Part shown: in pieces, positions 1,418-60,083 of the stretch | Layout: each line of letters opens with the position of its first letter | Position numbering within the stretch: position 1 is the stretch's first letter | DNA from: an uncultured Bacilli bacterium | GTDB taxonomy: Bacteria > Bacillota_I > Bacilli_A > RF39 > UBA660 | Assembly: GCA_934167465.1 (NCBI GenBank) | Contig: CAKPKR010000006.1 | Location: forward strand, 3,299 to 67,298 | Direction: 5' to 3' | Length of the DNA stretch: 64,000 nt | The notes under the pieces: generated by a model | The model's database searches: none | The model's input: the letters and a program-made list of their open reading frames with translations, nothing else | Told to the model about the DNA's origin: nothing | Translations under genes and position numbers: made by a program

Positions 1418-1990
1418 CTAGATAATTATTTTTTCTATTCTTTTTAAATTTAAATGTCTTATATCATTTAAATCTTCTGAATAACGTACTATAATCATTA
1501 CAGTATTTTCATATATATATATTTGAATTGGTAATACATCCCTAGTTTTTTTCAAACCTTTACTATTATATTCAATTGTTATTGATGCATTATTGTTAAT
1601 TGCATTTTGAATTATGCTTATTTTTCCTTTTTCTTCATTACTTATATTTTTGGTTTCATCAACTAATCTGCAATAATTACTTATTTTATATTTTATTTCT
1701 TCTAAGTCTCTTTTATCATTATCTGATAATTTATCTATTAACAAATTAACTTTATCTATATCATTCTTATTAAATAAAATTGAGGGGATTTCTACTTTTG
1801 ATTGTAGCCTATACCCTCCATTTTGTCCCATAATATTTTCTAGATATATTCCTTCTTTTTCAAGTTCTTCTTTATATTGTCTCACAGTTCTAGGCGTAAC
1901 TTCTAACATTTCAGCTAACTTTTTACAATTATAAATTTTTCCTGAAGATAAGATATCCAACATTTTAATATTTTTTGAAATCTTTGACAT
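1418..1990 (-). CDS. HTH-WYL domain transcriptional regulator
   Basis: N-terminal HTH (LAEMLEVTPRTVRQYKEELEKEGI) and C-terminal WYL-like segment (VMIIVRYSEDLNDIRHLNLKRIEKI). Clear paralogue of 31369..31965. Confidence 0.7.
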   Translation of the reverse strand: MSKISKNIKMLDILSSGKIYNCKKLAEMLEVTPRTVRQYKEELEKEGIYLENIMGQNGGYRLQSKVEIPSILFNKNDIDKVNLLIDKLSDNDKRDLEEIKYKISNYCRLVDETKNISNEEKGKISIIQNAINNNASITIEYNSKGLKKTRDVLPIQIYIYENTVMIIVRYSEDLNDIRHLNLKRIEKIII

Positions 1991-7516: not shown

Positions 7517-7592
7517 TGGTGTCCCGTTAGGGGCTCGAACCCTAGACCCACAGATTAAGAGTCTGTTGCTCTACCAACTGAGCTAACGAGAC
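7517..7592 (-). tRNA. tRNA-Lys (anticodon CUU)
   Basis: Cloverleaf readable: acceptor GTCTCGT/ACGGGAC, anticodon arm ACAGA-CTCTTAA-TCTGT, T-arm GGGTTCGAGCCC, encoded CCA. Confidence 0.9.
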
Positions 7593-8945: not shown

Positions 8946-10130
8946 TTATTTCTTTAATCCTTTTAAACCACCATTATAACCACTTAATATATTAGATTCA
9001 AATGAAGTAGTTTTTTTAGAGTTTTCTTTATATTCTTTAATGGTTAATTTAATAACATCATCTAACAATTTTTTGTATTCTATTCCTTTTGCTTTCCAAA
9101 GATAGAATGCTAAAGAACCTGGAATTGTGTTTGGTTCATTTACATATACTTTTTCATTCTTTTTATCAATTAAAAAGTCAATTCTAGCAATTCCTTTTAA
9201 GTTTAAAGCTCTAAATGTTTCTTTAGAACATTTAATTACTTCTTCTTCTAGTTTTTTATTAATTCTAGCAGGAATTATTCTATCTGTTGCTACCATACCT
9301 TTACTAGAAGTTTTTAATTTTCCTTTTTTACCATTTCCTAGATATTTATCACTAAATGTTAAAAATTCGTTTTTAGTAATAACTTCATCAATAACACTTG
9401 TATCTTGATATTCATTATTACCCATTACACTACAATTAACTTCAATTAAATTTTCGATTATTTTTTCAACTACTATTTTATTATCGTACTTAATTGCTTC
9501 ATCTATAGCTTTCACAACATCTTTTTCAGTTTTGGAAACTGTTATACCAACACTGCTACCTAAATTAGCTGGTTTTACTATTACTGGATAACCAATTTCT
9601 TTAATATTTTTTAGTATTTTTTTAGAATCATCTAAATATTCATTATCATAAAACCAAGTATAAGCTGGTACTGGTATATTATTTGCTTCCATTACTTGTT
9701 TCATTACAACTTTATCTTGTCCTAAACTTGCTCCTAACATAGAAGGACCTACATATGGAATTCCAACTGTTTCTAAGAATCCAGCTAGAGAACCATCTTC
9801 AACTCCTTTTCCGTGGACAATTGGAAATACGATATCTAGTTCATCTACTACTTTATTGAATAATCCATTTGTTTTTAATAAACAAAATCCTCTTTTTGTT
9901 TTGGCTAAAGTAACTTGTTTAGCATATTTTTTTAATTCATTAAAGTCTTTATATACATCTATTTCCATTAACATTTTACCAGTATACCAAATTCTATCTT
10001 TACTAATGTATATTGGCACTATATCATATTTATCTTTATCAATATTTTCCATTGCTTGAATAGCTGTTATAATACTTACTTCGTGTTCTACTGATTCGCC
10101 ACCAAATATTACTCCTAATTTTATTTTCAT
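8946..10130 (-). CDS. ddl: D-alanine--D-alanine ligase
   Basis: MKIKLGVIFGGESVEHEVS... and ATP-grasp motifs. Start placed at internal ATG 10130; the ORF extends to 10157. Confidence 0.9.
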   Translation of the reverse strand: MKIKLGVIFGGESVEHEVSIITAIQAMENIDKDKYDIVPIYISKDRIWYTGKMLMEIDVYKDFNELKKYAKQVTLAKTKRGFCLLKTNGLFNKVVDELDIVFPIVHGKGVEDGSLAGFLETVGIPYVGPSMLGASLGQDKVVMKQVMEANNIPVPAYTWFYDNEYLDDSKKILKNIKEIGYPVIVKPANLGSSVGITVSKTEKDVVKAIDEAIKYDNKIVVEKIIENLIEVNCSVMGNNEYQDTSVIDEVITKNEFLTFSDKYLGNGKKGKLKTSSKGMVATDRIIPARINKKLEEEVIKCSKETFRALNLKGIARIDFLIDKKNEKVYVNEPNTIPGSLAFYLWKAKGIEYKKLLDDVIKLTIKEYKENSKKTTSFESNILSGYNGGLKGLKK

Positions 10131-10143
10131 ACTATCACTCTTT

Positions 10144-11733
10144 CTACTTCTCATCAAATATATCAGGTAAATCGCTTTGAACTAATACATATGTTTCTTT
10201 ATCTACTATTTTATTAACTAATTCAAAGGCTTCATTTATATTGTTTAATACATAAATATTATTTTTTTTGAATTTTTTTTCTATTAATCCTTCATATATT
10301 GGTTTTGTTTGTTCTTTTCCTAGTAGTATAGCTATATCTGTTTTTTTACTCATATAAGTTCCTAATTCTTTATTAAGTTCATATGATTTATTTCCAAGTT
10401 CAATCATTCCTGAAGAGATTACTATTCTTTTACCAGGCATATTTTCTAGTACATCTAAGGCCATTTTTGTTCCATCAGGGTTTGCATTATATGCATCATC
10501 TATTATATTAATTATACCCATTTTTTTTAGTTCTAGTCTATGTTCTACTGGTTTTACTTTTTTTACTCCCATTTGTAGTTGTTTTATAGTTATTCCAAGT
10601 TCTTTTCCTAAAGCAATTCCCGCAAGTATATTATAGATGTTTGCTTTTCCTAATAGTTTTGTTTCAAATTTATATTTCTTTTTATCACCTTTAAATATAC
10701 AATCAAATGTTGTTCCATCACTATTTAATTTTATATTTGTTGCTCTAACATCAACGTTTTCATTTTCAATTCCAATCCAAACAATTTTTACTTTATTTTT
10801 CAATTTATAATTAACTTGTAATTTATCATCACCATTTAATACAGCTATTCCATCATTTGGTAATGATTCAATTAATTCAAATTTTCCTTTTTGAATATTT
10901 TCTTGAGAGCCAAAGCTTTCTAGATGTGCTACCCCAATTTTAGTCAATATCCCATATTTAGGCTTAACTAAATCACATAGTTCTTTTATTTCGCCTCTTT
11001 TAAATGCTCCCATTTCAGCTATAAATATATCATTGAATTTATCCAAATAATTATTTATTGTTATTATTAATCCAACTGGTGTATTAAAGTTTTTTGGAGT
11101 TGGTAATGAATTATATTTAATACTTAATAAGTCATTTAAGATATTTTTACTACTTGTTTTTCCATAAGATCCTGTAATTCCTACAACTTCTAATGAAGGT
11201 AATTCTCTTAATTTTTTTATAGCTTTTTTCTTAAAACGGTTTGCTAAAAACTTCTCAATTGGTTTATTTATTAAATTTGCTAAAAATGTTACATAATAAT
11301 TTAAATAAACCATTAATCCTATCACTAAATAATATATTCCTAAGTTATTTTCTTTAAAAGTTAAAGAAAATACTATGTTTGGTATTAAATATAATATTAA
11401 TTCTGTTACAAATAATCTTTTTACTCTTTTTGTTACTTTTAATTCTAATTTTGATGCAGTTTGATTGTGCAAATTATATAAAGACAAAAATGTATAAAAA
11501 ACTATTACTAATACCATCAATAATATGTCACTTTTAATAAATATAAATGGTATTACAAAAACGAATAGTATATCTAGATTATAAAAAACTTTTTTTAAAT
11601 TCCTATTAATCCATTTTATATATCTTGATCCATCATTATACCAATTTTGTTGTAACATTTGAAATGATTTTCTTGTTTTAATATATGTATATATCAATAT
11701 AGGAAGTAATGTTACTATAAACTTCATTAACAT
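10144..11733 (-). CDS. murF: Mur ligase (MurF-like) with N-terminal multi-pass membrane domain
   Basis: GITGSYGKTSSK P-loop plus Mur ligase central and C-terminal domains. The first roughly 170 aa are 4-5 hydrophobic helices. AAGGAG RBS precedes ATG 11733. Confidence 0.75.
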   Translation of the reverse strand: MLMKFIVTLLPILIYTYIKTRKSFQMLQQNWYNDGSRYIKWINRNLKKVFYNLDILFVFVIPFIFIKSDILLMVLVIVFYTFLSLYNLHNQTASKLELKVTKRVKRLFVTELILYLIPNIVFSLTFKENNLGIYYLVIGLMVYLNYYVTFLANLINKPIEKFLANRFKKKAIKKLRELPSLEVVGITGSYGKTSSKNILNDLLSIKYNSLPTPKNFNTPVGLIITINNYLDKFNDIFIAEMGAFKRGEIKELCDLVKPKYGILTKIGVAHLESFGSQENIQKGKFELIESLPNDGIAVLNGDDKLQVNYKLKNKVKIVWIGIENENVDVRATNIKLNSDGTTFDCIFKGDKKKYKFETKLLGKANIYNILAGIALGKELGITIKQLQMGVKKVKPVEHRLELKKMGIINIIDDAYNANPDGTKMALDVLENMPGKRIVISSGMIELGNKSYELNKELGTYMSKKTDIAILLGKEQTKPIYEGLIEKKFKKNNIYVLNNINEAFELVNKIVDKETYVLVQSDLPDIFDEK

Positions 11734-11738
11734 ATTTT

Positions 11739-12470
11739 TCACTCCTTAATAAAATTATTTATTATATTTATTGTTTGTCCTAATCTTTCTAAGTATGCAT
11801 AGTGTGTACAATTTTCATATTCTATTACAGCTGCATCTTTTATTAAAGTTTCTAATTCGTATGCATCTTCTAAAGGTACTGCTTCATCTAATGTTCCCCA
11901 AATTATAATTGTTGGACATTTTATTTTTTTTACTTCTTCAGTTATGTCTAAATTAACTGTATTTACTAATATTTTTCTCATTATTGGAGAAGCATTTTTA
12001 TAATCTGTTGAACCAATGTGTTTTTTGGCAAATTCTTCAAATTTATTTAAACCTGGAATTTTTTTTAATTTTTTTAATATTTTCGTTTTTGTACTTATTT
12101 TTTTTATTTCTTTTTTAAATGGGCTTCCAAATAAAATAAGTTTTTCAACTTCATACATACTTGCATAAAGTAAACTTATTTTTCCTCCAAATGAATGTCC
12201 AATTAGTATTGGCTTTTCAACTTTTAATTCTTTTAAACATTCTTTTATGCAATTAACAAAATCTATTACTTGCCAATCGAATGGAGGTTCACTACTCCCA
12301 CCGTGCCCTGGTAAATCAAATATTATGATATCGTTTGTTTCACTAAATGCATCACCTATTGGTTTCATCATTTCAATATTTTGACCCCAACCGTGTAGTA
12401 ATACTAAAGTCTTTCCTTTTTTATTTCCATATCTTATATAGTTGATATCTGTGTCTTTTATCTTTTTCAT
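11739..12470 (-). CDS. alpha/beta hydrolase
   Basis: LVLLHGWGQN and nucleophile elbow GHSFGG. Confidence 0.8.
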   Translation of the reverse strand: MKKIKDTDINYIRYGNKKGKTLVLLHGWGQNIEMMKPIGDAFSETNDIIIFDLPGHGGSSEPPFDWQVIDFVNCIKECLKELKVEKPILIGHSFGGKISLLYASMYEVEKLILFGSPFKKEIKKISTKTKILKKLKKIPGLNKFEEFAKKHIGSTDYKNASPIMRKILVNTVNLDITEEVKKIKCPTIIIWGTLDEAVPLEDAYELETLIKDAAVIEYENCTHYAYLERLGQTINIINNFIKE

Positions 12471-13185: not shown

Positions 13186-13725
13186 TTACGTGTTTTCTAT
13201 ATAATCTTCTTTAACATTTTCATCTATTTCATTTAATGTTTCTTCTGTTACTTCATCTTCAATATCATCCCATGGTTCTTCATCTTCTTCAATACTTATT
13301 TTTACTTTTGTTTCTCCTATTATTTCTACTCCTAGTTCTTTTTCAATTTCAAAGTTGATATTTCCATTATCTATATCTACTTTAACACAATTAGGTTGTT
13401 TTAATGTTCTAACTATTATATCGGTATCACTTGTCAAATCAGCATTTTCTTTAACTTTTACATTAAATAAATCATTATATGTTACTTTTTTATTTACAAC
13501 CATTGTTTTAGAATCGTTATCATAAGAATACCAAATATTTACATCGTAAGAACCATCAACTCCTATTTTATCACCAGATTTATAACCCTTAAATTTATGA
13601 TTTATTACCCAACATCCTAATACTGTTGTAGGAACATTTTCAGTAGTTATTGAATAACTATTTTTAAAGTGTTTTTTTCCTTTTCCGATAATAGCCTTAG
13701 TTACAATTTCTTTAAATGAAGACAT
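13186..13725 (-). CDS. cotE: outer spore coat morphogenetic protein CotE
   Basis: Collinear with Bacillus CotE as I remember it: FKEIVTKAI..GKGKK, LGCWVINHK, DVNIWYSYDNDSKT, LKQPNCV, VGETKV, acidic tail. Confidence 0.85.
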   Translation of the reverse strand: MSSFKEIVTKAIIGKGKKHFKNSYSITTENVPTTVLGCWVINHKFKGYKSGDKIGVDGSYDVNIWYSYDNDSKTMVVNKKVTYNDLFNVKVKENADLTSDTDIIVRTLKQPNCVKVDIDNGNINFEIEKELGVEIIGETKVKISIEEDEEPWDDIEDEVTEETLNEIDENVKEDYIENT

Positions 13726-13786: not shown

Positions 13787-14197
13787 TTAAAATATTATTT
13801 TTTTATCAGTATTTATTATATATTTTGTTAATTCTTCATATCTTGTATCATATGCATATCCTTGTGGTGGTGTAAATTTATATTTTTCTCTTAGTTCTTT
13901 TAAAGCAATAGGTTTTTCTAATTCATAAAAATGTTTTATTTGATAGGCATATTTATATTTTGTTAATTTTTCATTAAATTCTTTATTGCCAATTCCTAAT
14001 TCGTCTATTTTATTTGGAAATTCAATAATTTCTCCAATTTCTATTATATATTTTAATGAGGAAGTTGGAACTGTTTCATAAACATATAGAAAATCTATTT
14101 TTTCTTTAGGATTAAAAGATCTAAACTCATAATTTTTAGTTTTGTTTTCAATTCTTCTTAGATGAATTGGATTTATACTTATATAAATTGCCCTCAT
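13787..14197 (-). CDS. ASCH/PUA-like domain protein (tentative)
   Basis: 136-aa ORF whose N-terminus ISINPIHLRRIENKTKNYEFRS is ASCH-like. 4-nt overlap with the upstream gene. Confidence 0.45.
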   Translation of the reverse strand: MRAIYISINPIHLRRIENKTKNYEFRSFNPKEKIDFLYVYETVPTSSLKYIIEIGEIIEFPNKIDELGIGNKEFNEKLTKYKYAYQIKHFYELEKPIALKELREKYKFTPPQGYAYDTRYEELTKYIINTDKKIIF

Positions 14198-14775
14198 TTT
14201 TTCTTATAAAAATATGATACAAATTTAGAAAATTTATATAAAATTGTATTACTTTTATTTATGGCAAAACTTTTTCCTAAAGCTTTACCTCCAATTGTTA
14301 ATGAAGCTACTAAAGCTGTAACTATTAACATTACATAAAATTTATTAAATTTAAATGCATTAGCAATTGATAAAGCAATTATACTTCCAGCACTACCTGA
14401 TACGATACCACATATATCTCCTACTACATCATTACAAAAACTTGATACTTTATCAGCATTCTTTTTAAATGTTACAGCTATATCTGCTCCTTTAATTTTT
14501 CTAGAATTCATTGAATTAAATGGAACAATATCAGCAGCAGTCACAGAAACTCCTATCATATCAAATATAATTCCTAATAAAATAAAAATTATTAATAATA
14601 ATATTCCAATGACAACATTAACATTTGGAATTACAATTTCAGAAAAAGTTGTAAATAATAATGATATTACAAATGTAAGTAATGTTATTTTGATAATCCA
14701 ATTATAATTAATTAATTCTTTTTTCTTTTTAGATTGTAATTGTTTTTTTAAGCTTTTCTTTTCATCTTTATTCAT
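14194..14775 (-). CDS. small four-helix membrane protein with Lys-rich termini
   Basis: 193 aa with four hydrophobic segments and a conserved-looking NDVVGDICGIVSGSAG. Function unknown. Confidence 0.6.
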   Translation of the reverse strand: MNKDEKKSLKKQLQSKKKKELINYNWIIKITLLTFVISLLFTTFSEIVIPNVNVVIGILLLIIFILLGIIFDMIGVSVTAADIVPFNSMNSRKIKGADIAVTFKKNADKVSSFCNDVVGDICGIVSGSAGSIIALSIANAFKFNKFYVMLIVTALVASLTIGGKALGKSFAINKSNTILYKFSKFVSYFYKKK

Positions 14776-14848
14776 TTATTTCACCTATAATAATTATACC
14801 ATTTTTATTGTGTTTTTTATACTTATTAATCAAAAAAAGATTAGTTAA

Positions 14849-16249
14849 CTAATCTTCTATTGGTTCAGGCTTACCAAATATTTCAGTCATTCTATTTATG
14901 AAATTTACTACTGCCTCATTTTTTCCTATATTTTCATAAATTGAATTCATATCCTTTTCGGTAATATTTTCATAATTAATTCTTTCTTTTGAAAGAATAT
15001 TTGTAAATGGTTCATCAGTTTGTTCAATATTTGTATTGCTATTAATATTAATTGTAGCAATCAATTCATCATTATCCTTAATATTAATATTAAATTTTGA
15101 ATTATTAGTGTTTATACTATCTTTTTTGGTTATTTTATTTGTTAAATTTCCATCAATAGTTATCCCTGAACTAACTACATTATAATCAATATCAATTAGT
15201 TCTTTTGTTATTTTTGAATTAATTGTAATATTCGTTTTTTCTTCATCATTTTGAACATTAATAATTGTTTTATATTCATTTTCTTTTTGTTTTTTAGATG
15301 TTAATTCAGCTACTTTTTTTCCTGTTATATATAAATTTCCATAAATAACATCATTATAATTATAAATATTTAGTTTTCCTAAATTATTAAAATTAATTTC
15401 AAAGCCAATATAATCATTTAATAACCCTTTTGTGTATAAAGAAAGTGATACAAAAGTTTCATTTTCAAATTCAGTTTCTGCTTCTAATTCTTTTATAAGT
15501 TCATTAATACTAGACTCTATTTCTTTTTCATCAACTTCTCCTAGTTCAGAAATATATTTAATAAATTTTTTATCTTTTTCTAAATCTTTCAATGTATTAA
15601 TTAATAATTTAATTGTTTTTTCTTCAGTGAATTCATATTCTATTTTATTTACTTCAATTTTATTTTTTTGAATATTTAATTTTTCTTTTGATTTTTTAAA
15701 ATCTTTTTGATTTAAATTTTTAAACAAATTATCTTTAATAGTTTTTAAAACATATTTAATTTTACTAATTTCCATATTAGAGTTTTCAAATAATGAATCA
15801 TACTCTTCGTATGGAATCTCAATATATTTATCATATAAATTTTTAAGTTCAACATAAAAATTTTTATTTTGTCCATACATTGCAACATCAAATAAATCAT
15901 TTTTATCATATTTAGTGTTTAATTCAAATGAGAATTCTTTACTTTTATAATCTTGAACAGCATTTATAAAAAATTGCAACTTATTAATTTCATCTAAAAT
16001 ATTCTGATCAATTACATCTTTATATTTATCACTAACATTAAAATCAAAAGATAAATCACTATTTAATTTAGTTGTTTTATCATAAGAAACATCTATATTA
16101 TCTAGTGTATCTTCTATATTTTTATATCCTTTATTTAATATTTTAGCAAAAATATTTTTTGAATTATTTAAATATAAATATGTTCCTCCTAGTAAAACAA
16201 TAACAACGACAGGTAAAATTATCCATAATTTATTTATTTTTTTCTTCAT
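14849..16249 (-). CDS. membrane-anchored Asn/Lys-rich protein, unknown function
   Basis: Start set at ATG 16249 (MKKKINKLWIILPVVV, GAGGAG RBS). The longer ORF would run through a terminator and promoter. Confidence 0.6.
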   Translation of the reverse strand: MKKKINKLWIILPVVVIVLLGGTYLYLNNSKNIFAKILNKGYKNIEDTLDNIDVSYDKTTKLNSDLSFDFNVSDKYKDVIDQNILDEINKLQFFINAVQDYKSKEFSFELNTKYDKNDLFDVAMYGQNKNFYVELKNLYDKYIEIPYEEYDSLFENSNMEISKIKYVLKTIKDNLFKNLNQKDFKKSKEKLNIQKNKIEVNKIEYEFTEEKTIKLLINTLKDLEKDKKFIKYISELGEVDEKEIESSINELIKELEAETEFENETFVSLSLYTKGLLNDYIGFEINFNNLGKLNIYNYNDVIYGNLYITGKKVAELTSKKQKENEYKTIINVQNDEEKTNITINSKITKELIDIDYNVVSSGITIDGNLTNKITKKDSINTNNSKFNINIKDNDELIATININSNTNIEQTDEPFTNILSKERINYENITEKDMNSIYENIGKNEAVVNFINRMTEIFGKPEPIED

Positions 16250-16274: not shown

Positions 16275-16303
16275 ATTATAACAGAAAAAAAGATATTTTG
16301 CAA
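16275..16303 (-). promoter_or_regulatory. sigmaA-type promoter TTGCAA-17-TATAAT for gene 14849..16249
   Basis: Read on the minus strand. The -35 lies in the loop of the upstream terminator hairpin. Confidence 0.55.
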
Positions 16304-16309
16304 TATCTT
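16284..16309 (-). terminator. intrinsic terminator ending the non-coding unit
   Basis: Minus strand AAGATATT-GCAA-AATATCTT followed by TTTTTCT. Confidence 0.55.
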
Positions 16310-16895
16310 AAAACAATGGCGATTAATATAGTTAACTTTATGTCTTAGGTCAAGTAGAATTTCTCTAGTTTTTACTTATCGTTACCAATAAGCGGTTCCC
16401 CTTTGAAAAAACCAATATACCGTTACCAAATATATGACTTGATTACCACTTAGTACATACTGCAATCCTATATTAGCACTCTAGGAATTTTCTTCAACAA
16501 CAATTTATTATTAATTCTTTTTTGCAAACATAGTTTCATAAAGCAATAATATTATTATATTGGCCAAAACAATAATATCTGTCATTAATCCCCTATATTC
16601 ACTCAAGACAAGCTACGCTACTCGTAAGTGATCCCCACATAGTAGGTTTAATCCTAAATCGTCACAAGTCCATCAACTTTCGTGTATAGGCTTATAACAA
16701 GTTTAGGTCTCCACGAATACTGGGTCGATTGCGTATGCCATTACGGTCGCCCAACATTCTATCTTCCAGCACTCACCCTACACTGGGCGTATAAAGCAAG
16801 CACCACAAGCTTCACAGATGTGCTCTTTAATGGATTTTTAGCCCCATCTTCATAATAAATTTAATTGACTAGAATAATGTGCCATCAATTTATAT
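16284..16895 (-). ncRNA. candidate large structured non-coding RNA (about 610 nt, class unassigned)
   Basis: The unit runs from its own promoter to its own terminator with stops in all six frames. The core 16590-16860 is markedly G+C richer than its surroundings. Several helices have G-U pairs only on the minus-strand transcript. Confidence 0.5.
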
Positions 16896-16900
16896 ACAAA

Positions 16901-16929
16901 ATAATAGCAAATATTAGAATTATTGTCAA
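16901..16929 (-). promoter_or_regulatory. sigmaA-type promoter TTGACA-17-TATTAT driving the non-coding unit
   Basis: Read on the minus strand immediately after the tkt terminator hairpin (16963-16982). Confidence 0.55.
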
Positions 16930-16975
16930 ATTCTAATCTATTATATGTTTAATCAAAGAAAAAGATGAATTATAT

Positions 16976-18976
16976 TCATCTTATTAAATTATATATACCA
17001 TTTTCAATTGTCATATAATCAAATTTCATATATTCTAGTACTTGATCTTTAGGACCACTTATTCCAAAAGTATTAATAGTAAATAAATATGAATCATTAT
17101 AAACATATTTTTCCCAGCCAAATTTTGAACCTGCTTCAATTACTATTTTTTTACAACCTGTTGGTAATATTTGTTCTTTATATTCTTTTGATTGTTTTTC
17201 GAATAATTCCATACAAGGCATACTTACAACTCTTACATTTAAGTCATATTTTCTTTTTAAATTATATGCAACTAAACAAGCAGTAGATACTTCTGTACCA
17301 GTTGATATTATAATTCCATTTAAGTTTCCTTGTTCTCTTTCTAGTATATATGCTCCTTTACTAACATCTGCATTAACAGTATTTTTCATTATTTTTATTT
17401 CTGTTCTTGATAATAATAATGCACTTGGAGTTCCTTTTGATTTTAATATTTCATTCCAACAATAAACTAGTTCATTAGCATCACATGGTCTAAATACATT
17501 TAAATTCGGAGTAGCTCTTAAAGTTGCTAACTGCTCTATTGGTTGATGTGTTGGACCATCTTCACCAACTAATATTGAATCGTGTGAAAAAATATAAGTT
17601 ACTGGTAAATTCATTAAAGCAGACATTCTAATAGCTGGTTTCATATAATCGGAAAAACTTAAAAATGTTGATCCGAATACACGATAATTATATGTTGCAA
17701 TTCCGTTTAAAATAGCTCCCATAGCGTGTTCTCTAACACCAAAATAAATGTTTCTACCCTTAAAATCGTCTGTCTTTAAATAATCGTATTTTTCTAAATA
17801 TACATTAGTAGCGCTTGCGACATCAGCTGAGCCACCTATAAAATTAGGTATTTTTTCAGCTATCTTATTCATTATAGTTTTATTAGTAACTCTCGTTGCC
17901 TCTTTTAAATCTTCATCAAATTTAAAGTCTTCTAAAGATAACAATGGATAATTTACATCTTCAAATAAAAATTTAATTTCTTCATCTTTGACATTCAATA
18001 ATCCACTTTTATACATTTTATAATTATTAGACCATTCCATATATTTATCATTTACTCTAGTTGATATTTGGTTTTGAAAATTCATTTTTGCTTGTTCATT
18101 AACGTAGAATTTTCCTTGTGGTATTCCTAAGTTATTTTTTAATTGTTCAATATCTTCTTTAGATAATGGTTTTCCGTGAACTTTATTAGTTCCTGCTAGA
18201 AATGATCCTTCACCAATAATTGTTTTAAATTCTATTATAATTGGTTTTGATGAGTTTTTAGCCTTTTCTATAGCTTTACTTATTTCTTTTACATCATTTC
18301 CTTTTTTTACTAACAATGTATTCCAACCTAAAGCACTAAATCTACCTAAAACATTTTCTTTAAAGGTTAAATCAGTTGAGCCATCTAAGCTTATATTATT
18401 TGAATCATATAATACAATTAGATTATTCAAATTTAAACTTCCAGCTATACTAGCAGCTTCATTAGTGATTCCTTCCATTAAATCACCATCGCCACATAAT
18501 ACATATATTTTATGATCAATTATAGATTTTTCTTTTTCTAAAATATTTTTTTTAGGGGTTTTTAATTCTTGATATAGTTTTTTACTAGCGATTGCCATTC
18601 CTACAGCTGAAGCAAATCCTTGACCTAATGGTCCCGTAGAAATATCTACTCCCGGTGTTATTCCATATTCTGGATGTCCTGGAGTTTTATACCCTACTTT
18701 TCTAAAGTTTTTAAGGTCATCAATTGATAAGTCGAATCCCGCCATATATAATGTTGCATATAAAAGTGCTGAACCGTGACCTCCTGACATTATAAATCTA
18801 TCACGATTTATCCATTTTGAGTCTTTTATACTTATTTCTAAATGTTTAGCATATAAAGTATATAAAATTGGAGCAGCTCCTAATACGATTCCTGGATGCC
18901 CACTTTTAGCTTCATCAATCATATCAATTGCTAAAGACTTAATATTTGCAATTATTTCATTGTCCATTGTATTCAC
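16976..18976 (-). CDS. tkt: transketolase
   Basis: 666 aa. SGHPG, GDGDLMEG TPP motif and a transketolase C-terminal domain. Confidence 0.95.
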   Translation of the reverse strand: MNTMDNEIIANIKSLAIDMIDEAKSGHPGIVLGAAPILYTLYAKHLEISIKDSKWINRDRFIMSGGHGSALLYATLYMAGFDLSIDDLKNFRKVGYKTPGHPEYGITPGVDISTGPLGQGFASAVGMAIASKKLYQELKTPKKNILEKEKSIIDHKIYVLCGDGDLMEGITNEAASIAGSLNLNNLIVLYDSNNISLDGSTDLTFKENVLGRFSALGWNTLLVKKGNDVKEISKAIEKAKNSSKPIIIEFKTIIGEGSFLAGTNKVHGKPLSKEDIEQLKNNLGIPQGKFYVNEQAKMNFQNQISTRVNDKYMEWSNNYKMYKSGLLNVKDEEIKFLFEDVNYPLLSLEDFKFDEDLKEATRVTNKTIMNKIAEKIPNFIGGSADVASATNVYLEKYDYLKTDDFKGRNIYFGVREHAMGAILNGIATYNYRVFGSTFLSFSDYMKPAIRMSALMNLPVTYIFSHDSILVGEDGPTHQPIEQLATLRATPNLNVFRPCDANELVYCWNEILKSKGTPSALLLSRTEIKIMKNTVNADVSKGAYILEREQGNLNGIIISTGTEVSTACLVAYNLKRKYDLNVRVVSMPCMELFEKQSKEYKEQILPTGCKKIVIEAGSKFGWEKYVYNDSYLFTINTFGISGPKDQVLEYMKFDYMTIENGIYNLIR

Positions 18977-29149: not shown

Positions 29150-29716
29150 TTAATTAATTCCAATAATATAGTAAAAATATGGTGCATTTCCTGATGCAGA
29201 AAATGTAATACTATTACTACCTTTTGGAAGATTTAGTCGATATCCAATACCATAAGTAAATGAACCATAATCATTACCACTATTAAATATAGAATTTTTA
29301 AGTGGTACCCACGAATTTGTTTGCTTGATATATCCATTCTTATCACTAGAAAAGGCTAATGCAACTTTATATGATTTTGAAGTAGTAAAATTAAAAGTAT
29401 AATCACCAACCCAATTATTACCTGATACAATAATAGCAACCTCAGATATATTTGCACTTGCACTTACACCTATTATAAGTTATCCTTTTACTACTGCTGT
29501 TTTTCCATTCAATATATCATTTGCAGTTGCATCGCCTGAACTTTTTATTTTATAAATATCATTTAAAACTTCATTTACAGTCATACTTGTTCCATCACTT
29601 ACATTATATACAACATCACTTGCTTTATATGTGACCGCTGCATATAACGTTCCACTTATACATATAATCATTGTAATTATTACTAAAAATATTCTGCTTT
29701 TCATTATTTTTTTCAT
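29150..29716 (-). pseudogene. decayed member of the conserved-N-terminus secreted protein family (in-frame TAA at 29480-29482)
   Basis: The 78-aa ORF continues in the same frame for about 110 further codons after one TAA, down to the stop at 29150-29152. The N-terminus is paralogous to 46710..47534 and 60274..60897. Confidence 0.7.
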
Positions 29717-31368: not shown

Positions 31369-31965
31369 TCATTCATAAAATTCTTCAATTAATTTAATTT
31401 TTCTTATTCGGTCTAATTCGAAATGGCGCATATCTTTTCTTTTTTCACAGTATGCAGCACATCCCCATCCTCTTTCAGTTAAAAACATATCATAAGGATG
31501 AATAATTCTCAAATTTTCTCCTGCATTGTATGAATAATATAATATTTCAACTTTTTTTCTTTGTTTTATAGCTCTACTTAATACATTATATTTTTCATTA
31601 TTTAAAATGTTTGTTTCTTTTTGTTCTACTTTACTTCCTTGGTAAATTCCTCTAATTTTATCTTTTAATATTTCTAATTTTTTTTGTTCATTTATATCTT
31701 TTGTTTTTTCTATTAAATTTGATAGTAATTTTACATCATTTGAATTAAATTTTCTATTAGGAATTCTTATACTTTTATTTAAAACATAGCCACCATATTG
31801 GCCTCTTATTGTATCAATATATATTCCTGATTTTTCTATTTCTTCTTTATATATTCTTACCATACGAGGAGTTACTTCTAAAATATTAGATAACTCATCA
31901 ACACTATACTTTTTCCCACTATTCAATAATTCAATCATTGTAATAGCATTACTTAATTTTGACAT
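31369..31965 (-). CDS. HTH-WYL domain transcriptional regulator
   Basis: LSNILEVTPRMVRIYKEEIEKSGI HTH. WYL-type segment ERGWGCAAYCEKRKDMRHFELDRIRKI. Paralogue of 1418..1990. Confidence 0.7.
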   Translation of the reverse strand: MSKLSNAITMIELLNSGKKYSVDELSNILEVTPRMVRIYKEEIEKSGIYIDTIRGQYGGYVLNKSIRIPNRKFNSNDVKLLSNLIEKTKDINEQKKLEILKDKIRGIYQGSKVEQKETNILNNEKYNVLSRAIKQRKKVEILYYSYNAGENLRIIHPYDMFLTERGWGCAAYCEKRKDMRHFELDRIRKIKLIEEFYE

Positions 31966-32153: not shown

Positions 32154-33355
32154 TATGGTAATCGCTTAAAATTATTAAACATATCTATTGACAATCATTA
32201 AGATTTGGTATTACTTCAAAAATAAGTCTTTCTATTTTTGAAAAATCTAATACATAATTAGTTAATTTCCTTTTTAAAGGTACCTTCCCAAAACTATCAT
32301 CTAAACTTGCTAAATTAAATACAATCTTTCTTAGTATTGATAGATTATTGATACTATTTCCAATTCTATTTCTTGAATGGTCTTCATCTAGAATTACATC
32401 TAATCTCCAATGTAATCCACACTCAGTATTCCAATGATCTCTTATTACTTCTTCTAATCTTTTAATATCTATTTCATAATCTATAATGTAATAATTTTCT
32501 GTTATTGTTATTTCTTCATTTATCATTGTTTGGATTTTTGTATATGCTATCGCTTTTACCATTTTCCACTTCTTCCATAATCTTTTCCTATTGTTTTATA
32601 ATATTTTATATTTTTATTACCATATAAATTATATTGTTTATTAAAATACTTTTTTATATCTTTTAATAATTGCTTTTGGTTTTCTTTTACTTTTAATGCA
32701 TAATGCCCACCTTTATCAACTATTTTATTAACTATTTTTTCTTGTACTCCTATTGAATCTATTGTTATAGTTGCTCTTGTAATATCTATTAAATCTATCA
32801 AATCTAGTATTGTGGTTATTTCATTTGATTTACTTTTATTTGACCTATTGAAATACCTATATCTCCTAAAAAGGCAGAAACTATATATGGTATATTTCCA
32901 CCTTGTATTTTATTTGTTGCGCTTTTCACTGTTTTACCGTCGATACTTATCTTTTTACCTGTTTTATTTTTTACTATCTCGCTTATCCATTCAATAAAGA
33001 TTTCCATAAACTTTTTACTATCTATTTGAACATATAAATCTGATAAACAATCATGTGATGGTGTTCCATTTTTTAATCCTAATAATTTATTGAAATATTC
33101 TTCTTTTAATTTCATAAAATATGCAATATCAACATAATCGGTTTGTCCACATAGTATTGTATAAATTGTCATTATTAAAATATCTATTAATTTATATTTT
33201 TTCCTCTTATATCTCTTGGATCTTCTAATACTTCAAATTGTTCAAATAAACTCATCTATACCATCTCCTAGTATAATTGTAGCTTATCATTCTATTATTT
33301 GGTAACTTATTTACTTTTTTTACACTTTTTTTAATAATTTTAAGCGATTACCATA
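32154..33355 (-). mobile_element. ISAs1-family insertion sequence (1202 bp) with perfect 26-bp terminal inverted repeats
   Basis: Left end TATGGTAATCGCTTAAAATTATTAAA (32154-32179). The right end (33330-33355) is its exact reverse complement. Flanked by a 9-bp duplication. Confidence 0.85.
32185..33255 (-). pseudogene. ISAs1-family (H-repeat-associated) transposase, broken by three frameshifts
   Basis: Fragments MSLFEQFEVLEDPRDIRGK / MTIYTILCG..DGKTVKSA / KSNEITTILDLIDL..TIDSIGVQ / HWNTECGLHWRLDVILDEDHSR are collinear with the family but fall in different frames. Confidence 0.8.
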
Positions 33356-33364
33356 GTTAAGTTG
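33356..33364. repeat. target-site duplication GTTAAGTTG (right)
   Basis: See 32145..32153. Confidence 0.8.
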
Positions 33365-33408
33365 CAACAAAGTCTATCGTATGTTATAATAACCCCAGGA
33401 GGAAGATT

Positions 33409-33756
33409 ATGACAAATGGAGAAAAAATATTCAAAATTGAAAAAATACGAAAATATGAAAAAGAAATATCCAATGAAGATAAAAAAATCGTAAGAATAAC
33501 ATTTTCAACAGGTCTATCAGCATTAGTAGCGGCACTTTCTTTTAGTATCTCTTTAAATGAAAAAATGCAAGTTATACCAATTTTTGCATATACAGAATTT
33601 TTATTTGGTCTTATAAACTCTGCGTGTGTTATAACTCAATTAAAAGATTTATTAAAATCAATTAATAAGAAAACATTACTAAATATTAGAATTGAAACCA
33701 TAAATGATGAATTAGAATTTGATAAATATGAAGAAATTAGAGGATTAAAAAAATGA
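33409..33756 (+). CDS. small membrane protein, unknown function
   Basis: 115 aa with two hydrophobic helices. AGGAGG RBS. Promoter TTGCAA-17-TATAAT directly upstream. Confidence 0.55.
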   Translation: MTNGEKIFKIEKIRKYEKEISNEDKKIVRITFSTGLSALVAALSFSISLNEKMQVIPIFAYTEFLFGLINSACVITQLKDLLKSINKKTLLNIRIETINDELEFDKYEEIRGLKK

Positions 33757-33983
33757 TAATAGATATTAAAGATATTTTAACATTAGATGATAATAACGAC
33801 TATGTAGTAATAAGCAAAACAACTTATGAAAGTAAAACATATTATTATCTAGTTGATAATAATAATAATAGTAATTTAAAATTTTGTTATGAAAAAAATG
33901 ATTCATTAGTTGAACTTGAAGATAAAGAATTAACAACAAAATTATTACCTTTATTTTTAAAAAGTATTGAAAAAACATTTTAG
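33753..33983 (+). CDS. small acidic protein (DUF1292-like, tentative)
   Basis: 76 aa with an ATGA overlap onto the upstream ORF, followed by a terminator. Confidence 0.5.
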   Translation: MIIDIKDILTLDDNNDYVVISKTTYESKTYYYLVDNNNNSNLKFCYEKNDSLVELEDKELTTKLLPLFLKSIEKTF

Positions 33984-34004
33984 AAAGAGAAAATGTTTTT
34001 TTTG
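33971..34004 (+). terminator. intrinsic terminator
   Basis: AAAACATTT-loop-AAATGTTTT followed by a T run. Confidence 0.7.
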
Positions 34005-34039
34005 TAATTTAATAATTCGATTACGTTTTATAAAAAAAA

Positions 34040-34073
34040 ATTATAACAAAAGAAAAAACCTTTTACAAGGTTT
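34040..34073. repeat. 34-bp direct repeat copy B, 10 nt downstream of tRNA-Ser
   Basis: Identical to 31987..32020. Confidence 0.9.
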
Positions 34074-34083
34074 AAATTCTAAA

Positions 34084-34174
34084 TGGCGGAGTAGAGAGGA
34101 TTTGAACCTCCGCGCCAGTTGCCCGACCTACACCCTTAGCAGGGGCGCCTCTTCAGCCTCTTGAGTACTACTCC
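34084..34174 (-). tRNA. tRNA-Ser (anticodon GCU)
   Basis: GGAGTAGT acceptor, anticodon arm CGCCC-CTGCTAA-GGGTG, long variable arm, T-arm GGAGGTTCAAATCCTC, encoded CCA. Promoter TTGACA-17-TAAAAT upstream. Confidence 0.9.
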
Positions 34175-34236
34175 AAACACTACGATTATAATTTTACATT
34201 ATAATCATAATAATGTCAAGGTGTTTTATTAAACAA

Positions 34237-34659
34237 TTATTCCAAATCTTTATTGTAATCACTAGTTTGATAATTTCCAGGACAACTCAAATAAGTTTTA
34301 TATTCTTTCTTTTGTCTATTATAAACAACATAACCAGTACATTCTTTATTATTTTTAGGATCAACTACTTTTTTGATATATCCATTTCTAATTAAATTAT
34401 TTAATTTTATTATAACAGTATCTTCTGTTTCACTATTATTATATAACTTTGCCTGTTCAGTTATTCTATCTTCCAATTCAATATAGTCTCCAATATCAGT
34501 TTTATCTCCAGAAATTATAGGATCAATAATTGGCTTTTTATTTTCCTTATTCATCAATTGATTGCATAAGATTATTACAATAACTAAGCAGACAAAAAAA
34601 GCTAAAAGAAATAATAAAAATTCATTTAACCCCCACCCTTTATTATCTAATCTTTTCAT
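34237..34659 (-). CDS. membrane-anchored protein, unknown function
   Basis: 140 aa. N-terminal TM helix; C-terminal part has two Cys. Confidence 0.55.
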   Translation of the reverse strand: MKRLDNKGWGLNEFLLFLLAFFVCLVIVIILCNQLMNKENKKPIIDPIISGDKTDIGDYIELEDRITEQAKLYNNSETEDTVIIKLNNLIRNGYIKKVVDPKNNKECTGYVVYNRQKKEYKTYLSCPGNYQTSDYNKDLE

Positions 34660-34668
34660 ATTTCACCT

Positions 34669-35328
34669 CTAAAATATATCTATATTACTTTCTAATTCTT
34701 TAAATCTATATAATTTTGCAGGCCTACCATTTTTAATATTATTTTTATCGCCTGTATCTTCTAATATATCTAAATTAATCAATTTTTTTCTAAAATTTCT
34801 TCTATCTAATTTTTTAGCAAGTATCTCTTCAAATACCGCTTGTAATTCAGGCATTGTAAAATCACTTGGAAATAGTTTTTTTAATAATTCGACATTTGTT
34901 AATTCTTTTCTTAAATAATTAATAGTATCTTTTAAAATATCACCATGATCATATACCATCTTTGGTAACTCATTTATTGGAAACCAAGCTGATTCAAAAT
35001 TTCTTTTGTGCTTTTTTAATAATAGCGTTTGATTATCAACTAACCCAATTAAAGAATTACCTAATATTCTATCATTAGGAAGTCTATCTATTTTACTAAA
35101 AACATTGCATTGTTTCAAATATATATTCTCTATGCCTGCCATCTCATTAATTGTGTATTTAGCGCATTCTTCAATTGTTTCTGTGATCATAAGCAGATTA
35201 CTTGGAAGCATCCAATATCCCTTAAATGGTTCTTCTTCTTTTCTAAATAATAGAACATTTAATTTTCCTTTAGAAATTGTAAACAAATTAACTAAAACTT
35301 CAATTTGATTAATATATCTATTGTCCAT
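34669..35328 (-). CDS. NrtR-like Nudix-domain transcriptional regulator
   Basis: Nudix-fold N-terminus plus C-terminal winged helix (FTMPELQAVFEEIL..LDRRNFRKK..GRPAKLYRF). Start at ATG 35328 with a GGGTGA RBS. Confidence 0.72.
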   Translation of the reverse strand: MDNRYINQIEVLVNLFTISKGKLNVLLFRKEEEPFKGYWMLPSNLLMITETIEECAKYTINEMAGIENIYLKQCNVFSKIDRLPNDRILGNSLIGLVDNQTLLLKKHKRNFESAWFPINELPKMVYDHGDILKDTINYLRKELTNVELLKKLFPSDFTMPELQAVFEEILAKKLDRRNFRKKLINLDILEDTGDKNNIKNGRPAKLYRFKELESNIDIF

Positions 35329-35403
35329 TTTTTCACCCGTTTCACATCTAATTATAGTAATTTTTACACAAAATGTCAATTAAAAAGAGAGTTTACAACT
35401 CTC

Positions 35404-38400: not shown

Positions 38401-39036
38401 TAATCTCTTAACTAATCTTACTCTTTTTTGACTAGTTGGATCTTTAATTTCTGCTATTTCTTTATTAATTTTAGCAACTTCTTCTTCTAAATTAACTTGA
38501 GTAAGTAATTCCTTAATAGCTTCAGCACCCATTCCTACTCTGAAACTATTTCCATATTTTTCATAATATGCTCTATATTCTTTATCACTTATTGTTTGTT
38601 TTTTCTCTAAAGGTGCAGTACCCGGATCTAAAACAACATATGAAACAAAGTATAAAACTTCTTCTAGTTCTCTTGGTGACATATCAAGAACTAATCCCAT
38701 TCTTGAAGGTACACCTTTAAAAAACCAAATATGTGAAACTGGTGTAGCAAGTTCGATGTGACCCATACGTTCACGACGAACTTTGCTTCTTGTTACTTCG
38801 ACACCACATCTATCACAAACAATATTTTTATATCTTAATCTTTTATATTTACCACAACTACATTCAAAATCTTTAGTTGGTCCAAATATTTTTTCACAGA
38901 ACAAACCATCTCTTTCTGGTTTTAAAGTACGATAATTTATTGTTTCGGCTTTTTTTACTTCTCCATAAGACCAAGATCTAATTCTTTCAGGAGAGGCAAT
39001 TGATATTTTTAATCCTTCAAAATTATTAACATCCAT
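35404..39036 (-). CDS. rpoC: DNA-directed RNA polymerase subunit beta'
   Basis: 1210 aa. Zn-finger CxCGKY..CDRCG, NADFDGD active site. Confidence 0.98.
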
Positions 39037-42000: not shown

Positions 42001-42623
42001 ACTATATCTTGATCATTTGATAATCCAACTGCTCTAAGTAATGTAGTAACTGGAACTTTTCTTGTTCTATCAATTCTTACATAAATTACATCTCTGGCGT
42101 CCAATTCGTATTCTAGCCATGTACCTCTATTAGGAATAACTTGACTAGTTATAACTAATCTACCATTTTTGTCTATTTCTTTTCCATAATAAGCAGATGG
42201 AGATCTTACTAATTGTGATACGATAACTCTTTCAGCCCCATTAATTATAAATGTACCACTCTCAGTCATAACAGGCATATCTCCCAAGTAAATTTCTTGT
42301 TCTTTTACCTCACCTGTTTCTTGATTGAATAATCTGGCTTCTACTTTTAAAGGTGCTGCATAAGTTGCATATCTTTCTTTGCATTCTTTAATTGAATATC
42401 TTGGTTTTTCAAAGAAATAATCACCAAATTCAAGTGTTAAATTTCCTGTAAAGCTTTCTACAGGAAAAATATCATCAAATACTTCTTTGATACCATTTTT
42501 CATAAATTCATCATATGATTTTGTTTGAACTTCTAATAGATTTCCTAGTTCAATTGCATTTTTAGTTTTTGCATAACTTCTTCTTTCACGATAGTCTCCA
42601 ATTTTTTTTACTTTATAAGCCAC
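39036..42623 (-). CDS. rpoB: DNA-directed RNA polymerase subunit beta
   Basis: 1195 aa, all conserved regions readable, with a long acidic C-terminal tail. TAATG overlap with rpoC. Confidence 0.98.
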
Positions 42624-43822: not shown

Positions 43823-43991
43823 TAGTTGCACCTCCTTAAGTTTTATTCCGTAAAAATCCCTTACGTAATTACAGTAAGGGACCAAAGATCTTCATTATAA
43901 AGTCCTCGGTAGGTAATTAAGCTTTGTTTTGCTCCTACTGTCTACGGTACATATTTTTTTCACGAACAATCTAATTATAGCACATTTTTAA
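43823..43991 (-). promoter_or_regulatory. probable L10 leader (autoregulatory 5' UTR)
   Basis: 169-nt G+C-enriched untranslated stretch in the position of the Firmicute rplJ leader. Structure not verified. Confidence 0.4.
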
Positions 43992-59999: not shown

Positions 60000-60076
60000 T
60001 GGTGACCAGTACGAGATTCGAACTCGTGAATGCTGCCGTGAAAGGGCAGTGTGTTAAGCCGCTTCACCAACTGGCC
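60000..60076 (-). tRNA. tRNA-Glu (anticodon UUC)
   Basis: GGCCAGT acceptor, anticodon arm CTGCC-CTTTCAC-GGCAG, T-arm GAGTTCGAATCTC, encoded CCA. Confidence 0.88.
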
Positions 60077-60083
60077 AAAAAAA

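What the first reader, a model, noticed from the sequence alone, without database searches (positions are those of the whole stretch)
16284..16929. Self-contained non-coding transcription unit of about 610 nt with a G+C-rich core: candidate large structured RNA of unassigned class
A 670-nt gap lies between tkt and the next gene, with stop codons in all six frames. Read on the minus strand, the order is as follows.
- The tkt terminator hairpin.
- A near-consensus promoter, TTGACA-17-TATTAT (16901-16929).
- A core at about 16590-16860 that is conspicuously G+C richer than anything non-tRNA in this AT-rich window.
- An AT-rich tail.
- An intrinsic terminator (16284-16309).
- A separate promoter for the downstream gene, embedded in that terminator.
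Local helices can be drawn at 16722-16728/16747-16752, 16663-16669/16676-16684 and 16798-16803/16820-16825. The last two need G-U pairs that exist only in the minus-strand transcript, which supports that orientation.
I could not find the signature motifs of RNase P RNA, tmRNA, SRP RNA, T-box or common riboswitches. The length class is that of the ornate large RNAs of Firmicutes (OLE, ROOL, GOLLD). From memory, OLE loci are accompanied by a small four-helix membrane protein (OapA). A 193-aa four-helix membrane protein lies two genes downstream (14194..14775), but that link is only a recollection-based guess.
Basis: partly seen in the sequence, partly recalled or inferred. Interest (0 to 1): 0.75.

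Follow-up and report, generated by a model that had tools for sequence, protein, structure and literature searches.

The report
OLE RNA gene with nearby oapA

Summary
Window 16300..16901 (minus strand) matches Rfam RF01071 (OLE, Ornate Large Extremophilic RNA) over the whole model (1-616/616) at 397.8 bits, against a gathering score of 50 (E 2e-113).

- **Structure:** 140 of the 150 consensus base pairs present are standard pairs. Across 71 related OLE loci the structure covaries strongly: 88.8% of cells are paired against 38-46% in slid controls, and 114 of 150 pairs show changes on both sides.
- **OapA:** The 193-aa protein at 14194..14775 is an OapA orthologue. It has four hydrophobic segments, a sub-threshold CNNM/DUF21 match and the DxxxD motif (DVVGD). 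Its homologues follow an OLE gene in 74 of 80 related genome loci, directly in nearly all, including a cultured Bacillaceae species.
- **Transcription signals:** The promoter (TTGACA-17-TATTAT with TG), the G+C-rich core (40-45% against 17-25%) and the AT-rich hairpin plus T-tract are all present.
- **Local peculiarity:** An uncharacterised 466-aa gene, with its own promoter and terminator, lies between ole and oapA.
- **Host:** An uncultured human-gut Bacilli MAG lineage. OLE has already been surveyed across GTDB Bacillota genomes, uncultured gut clades included.

Verdict: already known, low interest.

The parts
16953..16982 (-). Terminator-like hairpin and U-rich tail at the end of tkt. The stem overlaps the tkt stop codon.
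   Evidence: 9-bp stem, -7.4 kcal/mol, followed by UUUUUCUUU. Sequence.
16901..16929 (-). ole promoter: TTGACA, 17-nt spacer, TATTAT, with a TG extended -10.
   Evidence: 11 of 12 matches, the best site in the region; an extended -10 box is aligned at the same position in 56 of 71 related loci.
16300..16901 (-). OLE RNA gene (Rfam RF01071, full length). The real transcript probably starts near 16894 and ends in the T-tract near 16283-16289.
   Evidence: 397.8 bits, E 2.2e-113, model 1-616/616; 140 of 150 consensus pairs are standard pairs; 209 of 249 highly conserved consensus positions are matched; covariation across 71 loci.
16283..16309 (-). AT-only hairpin (8 bp, GCAA loop) plus U7: the likely intrinsic terminator or 3'-end element of ole.
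   Evidence: -6 kcal/mol, weak on its own; conserved in L001 and in the neighbouring species L002. Not called by the G+C-dependent scan.
16275..16303 (-). Promoter of the inserted 466-aa gene (TTGCAA-17-TATAAT, TG extended), overlapping the ole hairpin.
   Evidence: 10 of 12 matches; absent from L002, which lacks the inserted gene.
14849..16249 (-). Uncharacterised 466-aa protein with an N-terminal hydrophobic anchor, lying between ole and oapA.
   Evidence: no Pfam, NCBIfam or PDB match; homologues lie downstream of oapA in L003, L004 and L021, and at this position only in the window and L001.
14832..14856 (-). Hairpin (AGAUUAGUUAACUAAUCU) plus U7 after the 466-aa gene.
   Evidence: Read directly from the sequence; not folded.
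14781..14801 (-). oapA extended -10 box (TGGTATAAT, 14801..14793) and ribosome-binding site (AGGTGA, 14786..14781).
   Evidence: the same TGATATAAT...AGGTGA...ATG arrangement precedes oapA in L002.
14194..14775 (-). oapA: OLE-associated protein A, 193 aa, four hydrophobic segments, DVVGD motif at residues 116-120.
   Evidence: PF01595 CNNM at 20.3 bits, below its cut-off of 28.4, as reported for OapA in PMC11332333; motif FCNDV[IV]GDI conserved through to Lederbergia; homologues follow OLE in 74 of 80 loci, directly in nearly all.

Best explanation
The region is the ole gene, which encodes an OLE (ornate, large, extremophilic) RNA of about 600 nt.

**Shown here**
- It has a sigma-70-type extended -10 promoter at 16929..16901.
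- The sequence fits the conserved multi-helix OLE architecture.
- An AT-rich hairpin plus T-tract follows at 16309..16283.
- oapA (14194..14775), which has its own extended -10 promoter, encodes the four-helix membrane protein that partners OLE RNA.

**Inferred from published work on Halalkalibacterium halodurans (not tested here)**
- The RNA dimerises.
- OapA anchors it to the cell membrane.
- It forms a ribonucleoprotein particle that helps the cell cope with stresses such as short-chain alcohols, cold, excess Mg2+ and poor carbon sources.
- Its biochemical activity is still unknown in the literature.

**Specific to this species:** an unrelated 466-aa gene cassette lies between ole and oapA, so the two are separate transcription units rather than adjacent genes.
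For: - **Family match:** One search gives RF01071 OLE at 397.8 bits (gathering score 50), E 2.2e-113, model 1-616/616, not truncated.
- **Structure in this sequence:** 150 of 159 consensus pairs are present, and 140 of them are standard pairs. 209 of 249 highly conserved consensus positions match.
- **Covariation:** On 71 OLE loci, 88.8% of cells are paired against 37.8-46.1% when partners are slid. 114 of 150 pairs change on both sides, and 0 of 500 shuffles reach the observed values.
- **Independent Rfam check:** 9 of 9 related loci tested again scored 377-494 bits for OLE.
- **OapA:** It has a sub-threshold CNNM match, and the DxxxD motif and four hydrophobic segments are conserved through to Lederbergia wuyishanensis. 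An OLE gene lies upstream of the homologue in 74 of 80 loci. PMC11332333 and PMC12265935 describe exactly these OapA features and the ole-oapA adjacency.
- **Transcription signals:** Promoters, hairpins, G+C-rich core.
- **Host:** Uncultured gut Bacilli MAGs, within the known Bacillota range of OLE.
Against: - No expression data are available, so the transcript ends are inferred.
- The 3' hairpin is weak (A-U pairs only, z -1.2).
- The small hairpin at Rfam model positions 424-435 and three pairs of the enclosing stem are missing. This is a trait of the whole gut-Bacilli clade rather than damage to this copy.
- oapA is not immediately adjacent to ole.
- OapB (YbzG) and OapC (YbxF) homologues were not found in the window. 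In H. halodurans their genes lie elsewhere in the genome, away from ole, and they are reported to be largely missing from reduced gut clades.
Confidence: 0.97

Rival explanations
1. It is a decaying, non-functional OLE remnant: the family assignment is right but the gene is no longer used, because oapA has been separated from it by an insertion.
For: A 466-aa gene lies between ole and oapA. One small hairpin is missing. 40 of 249 highly conserved consensus positions differ.
Against: - 140 of 150 pairs are standard pairs.
- The promoter is near-consensus.
- oapA is intact and keeps its own conserved promoter and ribosome-binding site.
- The strain in L001 and the sister species L002 have nearly identical OLE sequences.
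- The missing hairpin is absent from the whole clade.
- Many of the differences from the consensus are G-to-A or C-to-U changes, as expected in a very AT-rich genome, and pairing is kept.
Confidence: 0.02
2. It is a large structured RNA of a different or new class (ROOL, GOLLD, raiA, HEARO, group II intron or an undescribed one) that only resembles OLE in size.
Against: In the all-family Rfam scan at gathering thresholds, OLE was the only match in this region and covered the full model. The synteny with oapA is specific to OLE.
Confidence: 0.005
3. The G+C-rich core is a fragment of a protein-coding gene, or the region is a long cis-regulatory 5' leader of the downstream 466-aa gene.
For: A 57-aa antisense ORF lies at 16682..16855. 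The region sits directly upstream of a gene.
Against: - The antisense ORF is broken by frame-shifting length changes in relatives.
- Substitutions follow base-pairing rather than codon patterns.
- A hairpin with a T-tract and a separate promoter separate the RNA from the downstream gene.
- In L002 and more than 65 other loci, the same RNA is followed by oapA rather than by this gene.
Confidence: 0.005

Closest known systems
OLE RNA (Rfam RF01071), full-length type, as characterised in Halalkalibacterium (Bacillus) halodurans
   Same: - Length is about 600 nt and the alignment covers the full model.
- The conserved sequence blocks are shared (for example CUAGUCA, GCCCAG, AAUGGCAU, GUGGAGACC, GUAGC, UUGAGUG, UGCAAAA, CCUAGA, ACUAAGUGGUAAUC, GGUAAC twice, GACCUAAG).
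- The helices are the same and are supported by covariation.
- An oapA gene lies nearby, and the host is in Bacillota.
   Different: - G+C content is far lower (34%).
- The small hairpin at model positions 424-435 is missing, as in the whole gut-Bacilli clade.
- ole has its own promoter and a terminator-like hairpin. In H. halodurans it is part of one long polycistronic transcript.
- oapA is separated from ole by an extra gene.
- The neighbours are tkt, CotE and rpsP rather than the isoprenoid genes. In L080 and L072 a transketolase-like gene, possibly dxs, does lie downstream of oapA.
OLE variant 1 (TANB77) and variant 2 (RF39) of uncultured gut bacteria (Fernando and Breaker 2024, PMC11332333)
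   Same: The host is likewise an uncultured, AT-rich gut lineage within Bacillota. Several related loci in my alignment have a shortened helix 5, the apical part that the window keeps.
   Different: The window's RNA keeps every Rfam helix between model positions 196 and 385, so it is of the full-length type and not a P7/P8-less or shortened variant. I could not see the paper's figures, so my mapping onto its P-numbers is approximate.
ROOL and GOLLD RNAs (other ornate large bacterial RNAs)
   Same: They are also large, structured, non-coding RNAs of unknown biochemical function, found in Bacillota and their phages.
   Different: There was no Rfam match to either family. They are not associated with oapA.
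CNNM/DUF21 Mg2+ transporters (MpfA, CorB, CorC), as relatives of OapA
   Same: There is a weak PF01595 match over residues 60-191.
   Different: The score is below Pfam's cut-off. There are no CBS or CorC_HlyC domains. The protein has four rather than three transmembrane segments, and it has the DxxxD motif that the literature says CNNM domains lack.

Membership tests
OLE RNA (RF01071) | Score above the curated covariance-model threshold over the whole model | tested here: met
   397.8 bits against a gathering score of 50, model 1-616/616, not truncated.
OLE RNA (RF01071) | Length of about 600 nt with a large fraction of highly conserved nucleotides | tested here: met
   The match is 602 nt. 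209 of 249 upper-case consensus positions are identical. 156 columns are invariant across 71 related loci.
OLE RNA (RF01071) | Many base-paired substructures supported by covariation | tested here: met
   there are 19 helix blocks, 88.8% of cells are paired against 38-46% in slid controls, and 114 of 150 pairs show changes on both sides.
OLE RNA (RF01071) | oapA gene next to or near ole | tested here: met
   oapA lies at 14194..14775, one gene downstream. It is directly downstream in most related loci.
OLE RNA (RF01071) | Host is a member of Bacillota, typically an anaerobe or extremophile | tested here: met
   the closest locus, L001, is an uncultured Bacilli MAG from human (Hadza) gut, with 99% OapA identity.
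OLE RNA (RF01071) | Expressed as an abundant RNA that localises to the membrane and dimerises | not testable with these tools
   This needs RNA-seq, a Northern blot, fractionation or cryo-EM.
OLE RNP complex | Partner proteins OapB (YbzG, KOW domain) and OapC (YbxF, L7Ae-like) encoded in the genome | tested here: inconclusive
   No L7Ae-like gene follows rpoC, and Pfam gave no L7Ae-like match for the small ORFs I scanned; not every ORF in the window was scanned. The rest of the genome is not available. These proteins are reported to be largely missing from reduced gut clades.
OapA | Small protein with four transmembrane helices and no CBS or CorC domains | tested here: met
   The protein is 193 aa. 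Hydropathy gives segments at about 24-45, 50-86, 117-139 and 143-167. Only a partial CNNM match was found.
OapA | Weak, sub-threshold similarity to the CNNM/DUF21 domain | tested here: met
   PF01595 at 20.3 bits, cut-off 28.4. PMC11332333 reports OapA as the next-best cluster below MpfA.
OapA | DxxxD motif | tested here: met
   DVVGD lies at residues 116-120 and is conserved in all 15 aligned homologues.
OapA | Binds OLE RNA and is needed for its membrane localisation | not testable with these tools
   This requires biochemistry.
ROOL / GOLLD / raiA / HEARO / group II intron | Rfam covariance-model match at the gathering threshold | tested here: not met
   no such match anywhere in the window.

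The most novel reading that the evidence does not exclude
The 466-aa membrane-anchored protein of unknown family is a lineage-specific partner or modifier of the OLE particle. It lies between ole and oapA here, and its homologues lie directly after oapA in three related species. Its insertion may have uncoupled ole and oapA expression in this species.
Probability: 0.07. Interest if true: 0.35.

Novelty: already known. Interest (0 to 1): 0.1.

Why it matters
It matters little beyond correct annotation. OLE RNA is among the most intriguing bacterial non-coding RNAs: it is large, membrane-associated and of unknown biochemical function. However, the family, its OapA partner and its presence in uncultured gut Bacillota have all been published, including a survey of GTDB that found 2,822 Bacillota representatives (PMC11332333). 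This locus adds one more full-length example from a very AT-rich gut lineage. It has clean, separate promoters for ole and oapA and an inserted gene between them. That could be of minor use to people studying how ole and oapA expression is coupled.

Tried and rejected
- **PDB sequence searches:** OapA, the 136-aa ORF and the 466-aa ORF gave no meaningful hits.
- **Pfam and NCBIfam:** Nothing was found for the 466-aa and 136-aa ORFs, even at E<=10.
- **Structure prediction:** A single-sequence AlphaFold2 model of the 136-aa ORF was unusable (pLDDT 41), so I ran no fold search. My impression that its K-N-Y-E-F-R stretch resembles an ASCH-domain motif remains untested.
- **Search for OapC/YbxF:** I looked at its usual place after rpoC and found an NrtR-like regulator and transposase fragments instead.
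- **Inserted genes compared:** I tested whether the gene inserted between ole and oapA in L056 and L035 is related to the window's 466-aa gene. It is not; it is a polysaccharide deacetylase.
- **Literature search:** A search combining 'OLE RNA', cotE and tkt returned only irrelevant papers.
- **Coding-fragment idea:** Rejected.
- **Other RNA families:** Rejected.

Full report
**Observation.** Read on the minus strand, the region between the transketolase gene (16976..18976; Pfam Transketolase_N, Transket_pyr and Transketolase_C_1) and the next ATG (16249) is 726 nt with no substantial ORF.
- The consensus scan ranks TTGACA-17-TATTAT at 16929..16901 as the best promoter-like site. It has 11 of 12 matches and a TG extension.
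- The composition profile confirms a G+C-rich core of 40-45% GC at 16575..16874, against 17-25% in the flanks.
- The 3' hairpin (16309..16290) plus U7 folds at only -6 kcal/mol, with z = -1.2. The G+C-dependent terminator scan misses it.
- The hairpin is nevertheless conserved in a second strain (L001) and in the sister species L002.
- A second promoter, TTGCAA-17-TATAAT (16303..16275), overlaps the hairpin.
Of the three hand-drawn helices, only one overlaps the conserved structure, by three pairs.

**Identity.** A scan of the whole window against all 4,227 Rfam families at gathering thresholds gives a single match in this region: RF01071, OLE (Ornate Large Extremophilic RNA). It covers 16300..16901 on the minus strand at 397.8 bits (gathering score 50), E 2.2e-113, model positions 1-616 of 616, not truncated.
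- I transcribed that alignment. 150 of the 159 consensus pairs are present, and 140 of them are standard pairs.
- 209 of the 249 highly conserved (upper-case) consensus positions are identical.
- The one structural loss is the small hairpin at model positions 424-435 together with three pairs of the enclosing stem.
- In an alignment of 71 related OLE sequences, that hairpin is present only in the Clostridia-type loci and in Lederbergia. It is absent from the whole gut-Bacilli clade. It is therefore a clade trait, not decay of this copy.

**Relatives and covariation.** A search of GTDB representative genomes with the 193-aa downstream protein returned 80 loci.
- Most are uncultured gut MAGs labelled Bacilli, Tenericutes or Erysipelotrichaceae. 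The set also includes some Oscillospiraceae and Clostridia and the cultured Lederbergia wuyishanensis.
- L001 (CAKOTA010000004.1, from Hadza gut) is 99% identical at the protein level and is evidently the same species as the window.
- nhmmer with the window's RNA, and then with a profile, found an OLE homologue on the same strand upstream of the protein match in 74 of the 80 loci, 70 of them near full length and the other four cut off at contig ends. Where the spacing can be read it is about 30-90 nt in nearly all.
- An independent Rfam scan of 11 loci confirmed OLE at 377-494 bits in all nine expected cases. It found none in the two loci where nhmmer had found none.
- I mapped the Rfam structure onto a MAFFT alignment of 71 sequences and counted pairs. 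88.8% of cells form standard pairs, against 37.8-46.1% when the 3' partners are slid by 1-3 columns.
- 114 of 150 pairs show changes on both sides, and no shuffle out of 500 reaches the observed values.
- The longest open frames are not conserved. Length changes of 1-4 nt shift the antisense 57-aa ORF out of frame in relatives, which rules out a coding fragment.

**OapA.** The 193-aa protein (14194..14775) has the following features.
- It has four hydrophobic segments.
- It has a sub-threshold match to the CNNM/DUF21 domain: PF01595 at 20.3 bits, against a cut-off of 28.4.
- It has no CBS or CorC domains.
- It carries the motif FCNDVVGDICG, which contains DxxxD and is conserved in all 15 aligned homologues, including the Bacillaceae one.
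- Fernando and Breaker (PMC11332333) describe OapA in just these terms: weak CNNM homology that clusters just below MpfA, a distinctive DxxxD motif and four transmembrane helices.
- Lyon and Breaker (PMC12265935) state that oapA is the most common immediate downstream neighbour of ole.
- No solved structure matches the protein by sequence.

**Local gene arrangement.** In this species and in L001, a 466-aa ORF (14849..16249) lies between ole and oapA.
- It has an N-terminal hydrophobic anchor and is rich in Lys, Asn and Glu. It has no Pfam, NCBIfam or PDB match.
- It has its own promoter (16303..16275). It is followed by its own hairpin plus T7 (14856..14832).
- oapA keeps an extended -10 box (TGGTATAAT, 14801..14793) and a ribosome-binding site (AGGTGA). 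These match the arrangement upstream of oapA in L002, where nothing is inserted.
- Homologues of the 466-aa protein lie immediately downstream of oapA in L003, L004 and L021. The gene has therefore moved within the neighbourhood rather than arriving from elsewhere.
- In L056 and L035, an unrelated polysaccharide deacetylase occupies the same slot.
- A 136-aa ORF (13787..14197) overlaps the oapA stop codon by 4 nt and is found only in the window and L001. It has no detectable family, and its single-sequence structure model was unusable.
- Further downstream lie CotE, ribosomal protein S16 and a KhpA-type KH protein. By their sizes and sequences, the ORFs at 10144..11742 and 8946..10157 look like MurF and a D-Ala-D-Ala ligase; this is my reading, not a tested assignment. 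LexA lies upstream of tkt.
- These categories are sporulation, translation, cell wall, DNA repair and central metabolism. They are the ones the literature lists as typical ole neighbours.

**Mechanism.**
- Shown here: the family assignment, the structure conservation, the promoter and hairpin sequences, and the OapA synteny.
- Inferred from work on H. halodurans: OLE RNA dimerises, and OapA binds it and anchors it to the membrane. Together with OapB (YbzG) and OapC (YbxF, which binds a k-turn) it forms a particle needed for tolerance of alcohols, cold, excess Mg2+ and poor carbon sources. The biochemical activity remains unknown.
- I found no YbxF-like gene after rpoC, and the small ORFs I scanned with Pfam gave no L7Ae-like match. 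In H. halodurans these genes lie elsewhere in the genome, away from ole, and they are reported to be largely missing from reduced gut lineages. This is inconclusive.

**Novelty and verdict.** OLE RNA was described in 2006. A 2024 survey found 2,822 representatives across GTDB Bacillota, including uncultured gut clades and shortened variants. The window's RNA is of the full-length type. The finding is a correct rediscovery of a known RNA and its partner gene, so I rate it 'already known' with low interest. The only slightly unusual points are the gene inserted between ole and oapA and the clean, separate transcription signals for each of the three genes.

Noticed in passing
window 14849..16249 (-); L003:6779-8095, L004:662-2014, L021:6748-7227: An uncharacterised 466-aa protein with an N-terminal anchor lies between ole and oapA and has its own promoter and terminator. 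Its homologues lie just downstream of oapA in three related species, and L002 has no gene inserted between ole and oapA. It has no Pfam, NCBIfam or PDB match.
   Followed up: partly
window 13787..14197 (-): A 136-aa ORF overlaps the oapA stop codon by 4 nt, which suggests translational coupling. Among the 80 loci it is present only in the window and L001. It has no family match, and its AlphaFold2 single-sequence model was unusable (pLDDT 41). A K-N-Y-E-F-R stretch reminded me of ASCH domains, but I did not test this.
   Followed up: partly
window 13186..13725 (-); L003, L004, L010, L011, L014, L054: A CotE (outer spore coat) homologue (PF10628, E 2e-51) lies close to oapA here and within a few kb of it in six related species whose MAGs are labelled Bacilli, Tenericutes, Firmicutes or Muribaculaceae. 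This fits the published link between ole and sporulation genes, and it suggests that these small-genome gut lineages form spores.
   Followed up: partly
L005, L025, L037, L038, L062: These loci hold OapA homologues (52-62% identity) but no OLE RNA within 6 kb on either side. nhmmer with a profile found none in all five, and Rfam found none in L005 and L038. Either ole lies elsewhere in these genomes or OapA occurs without OLE.
   Followed up: partly
L056:4712-5968, L035:774-2030 (also L062:4264-5514): In another subclade (L056 and L035), a 418-aa membrane-anchored ORF lies between ole and oapA; the L056 copy matches polysaccharide deacetylase (PF01522). L062 has a similar-looking 416-aa ORF upstream of oapA, but no OLE was found there. 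The L056 ORF is unrelated to the window's 466-aa insert.
   Followed up: partly
window 29480..29716, 46710..47534, 60274..60897 (all -): Three ORFs of 78, 274 and 207 aa share nearly identical signal-peptide-like N-termini (MKKI[MI]KSRIF...TYKA[ST]DV[VI]YNAS). They appear to be a small paralogous family of secreted or surface proteins, one of them possibly truncated.
   Followed up: no
window 32185..35379 (-): rpoB and rpoC (by size and position, downstream of the L10 leader; 39036..42623 and 35404..39036) are not followed by the usual ybxF-rpsL-rpsG-fusA genes. Instead there is an NrtR-like Nudix/winged-helix regulator (34669..35379), several unknown small ORFs, and a fragment of a DDE transposase-associated domain (32816..33172). 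This suggests a rearrangement or an insertion.
   Followed up: partly
window 31369..31965 and 1418..1990 (-): There are two HTH regulators with similar N-termini (MSK[LI]S..I.M...L.SGK.Y....L...LEVTP R.VR.YK). Pfam confirmed the first as HTH_11 plus a WYL domain. I did not check the second.
   Followed up: no
window 43842..43965 (-), 7520..7592 (-), 60003..60159 (-): The other Rfam matches in the window are the ribosomal protein L10 leader upstream of the presumed rplJ-rplL genes and three tRNA genes. All are ordinary.
   Followed up: no
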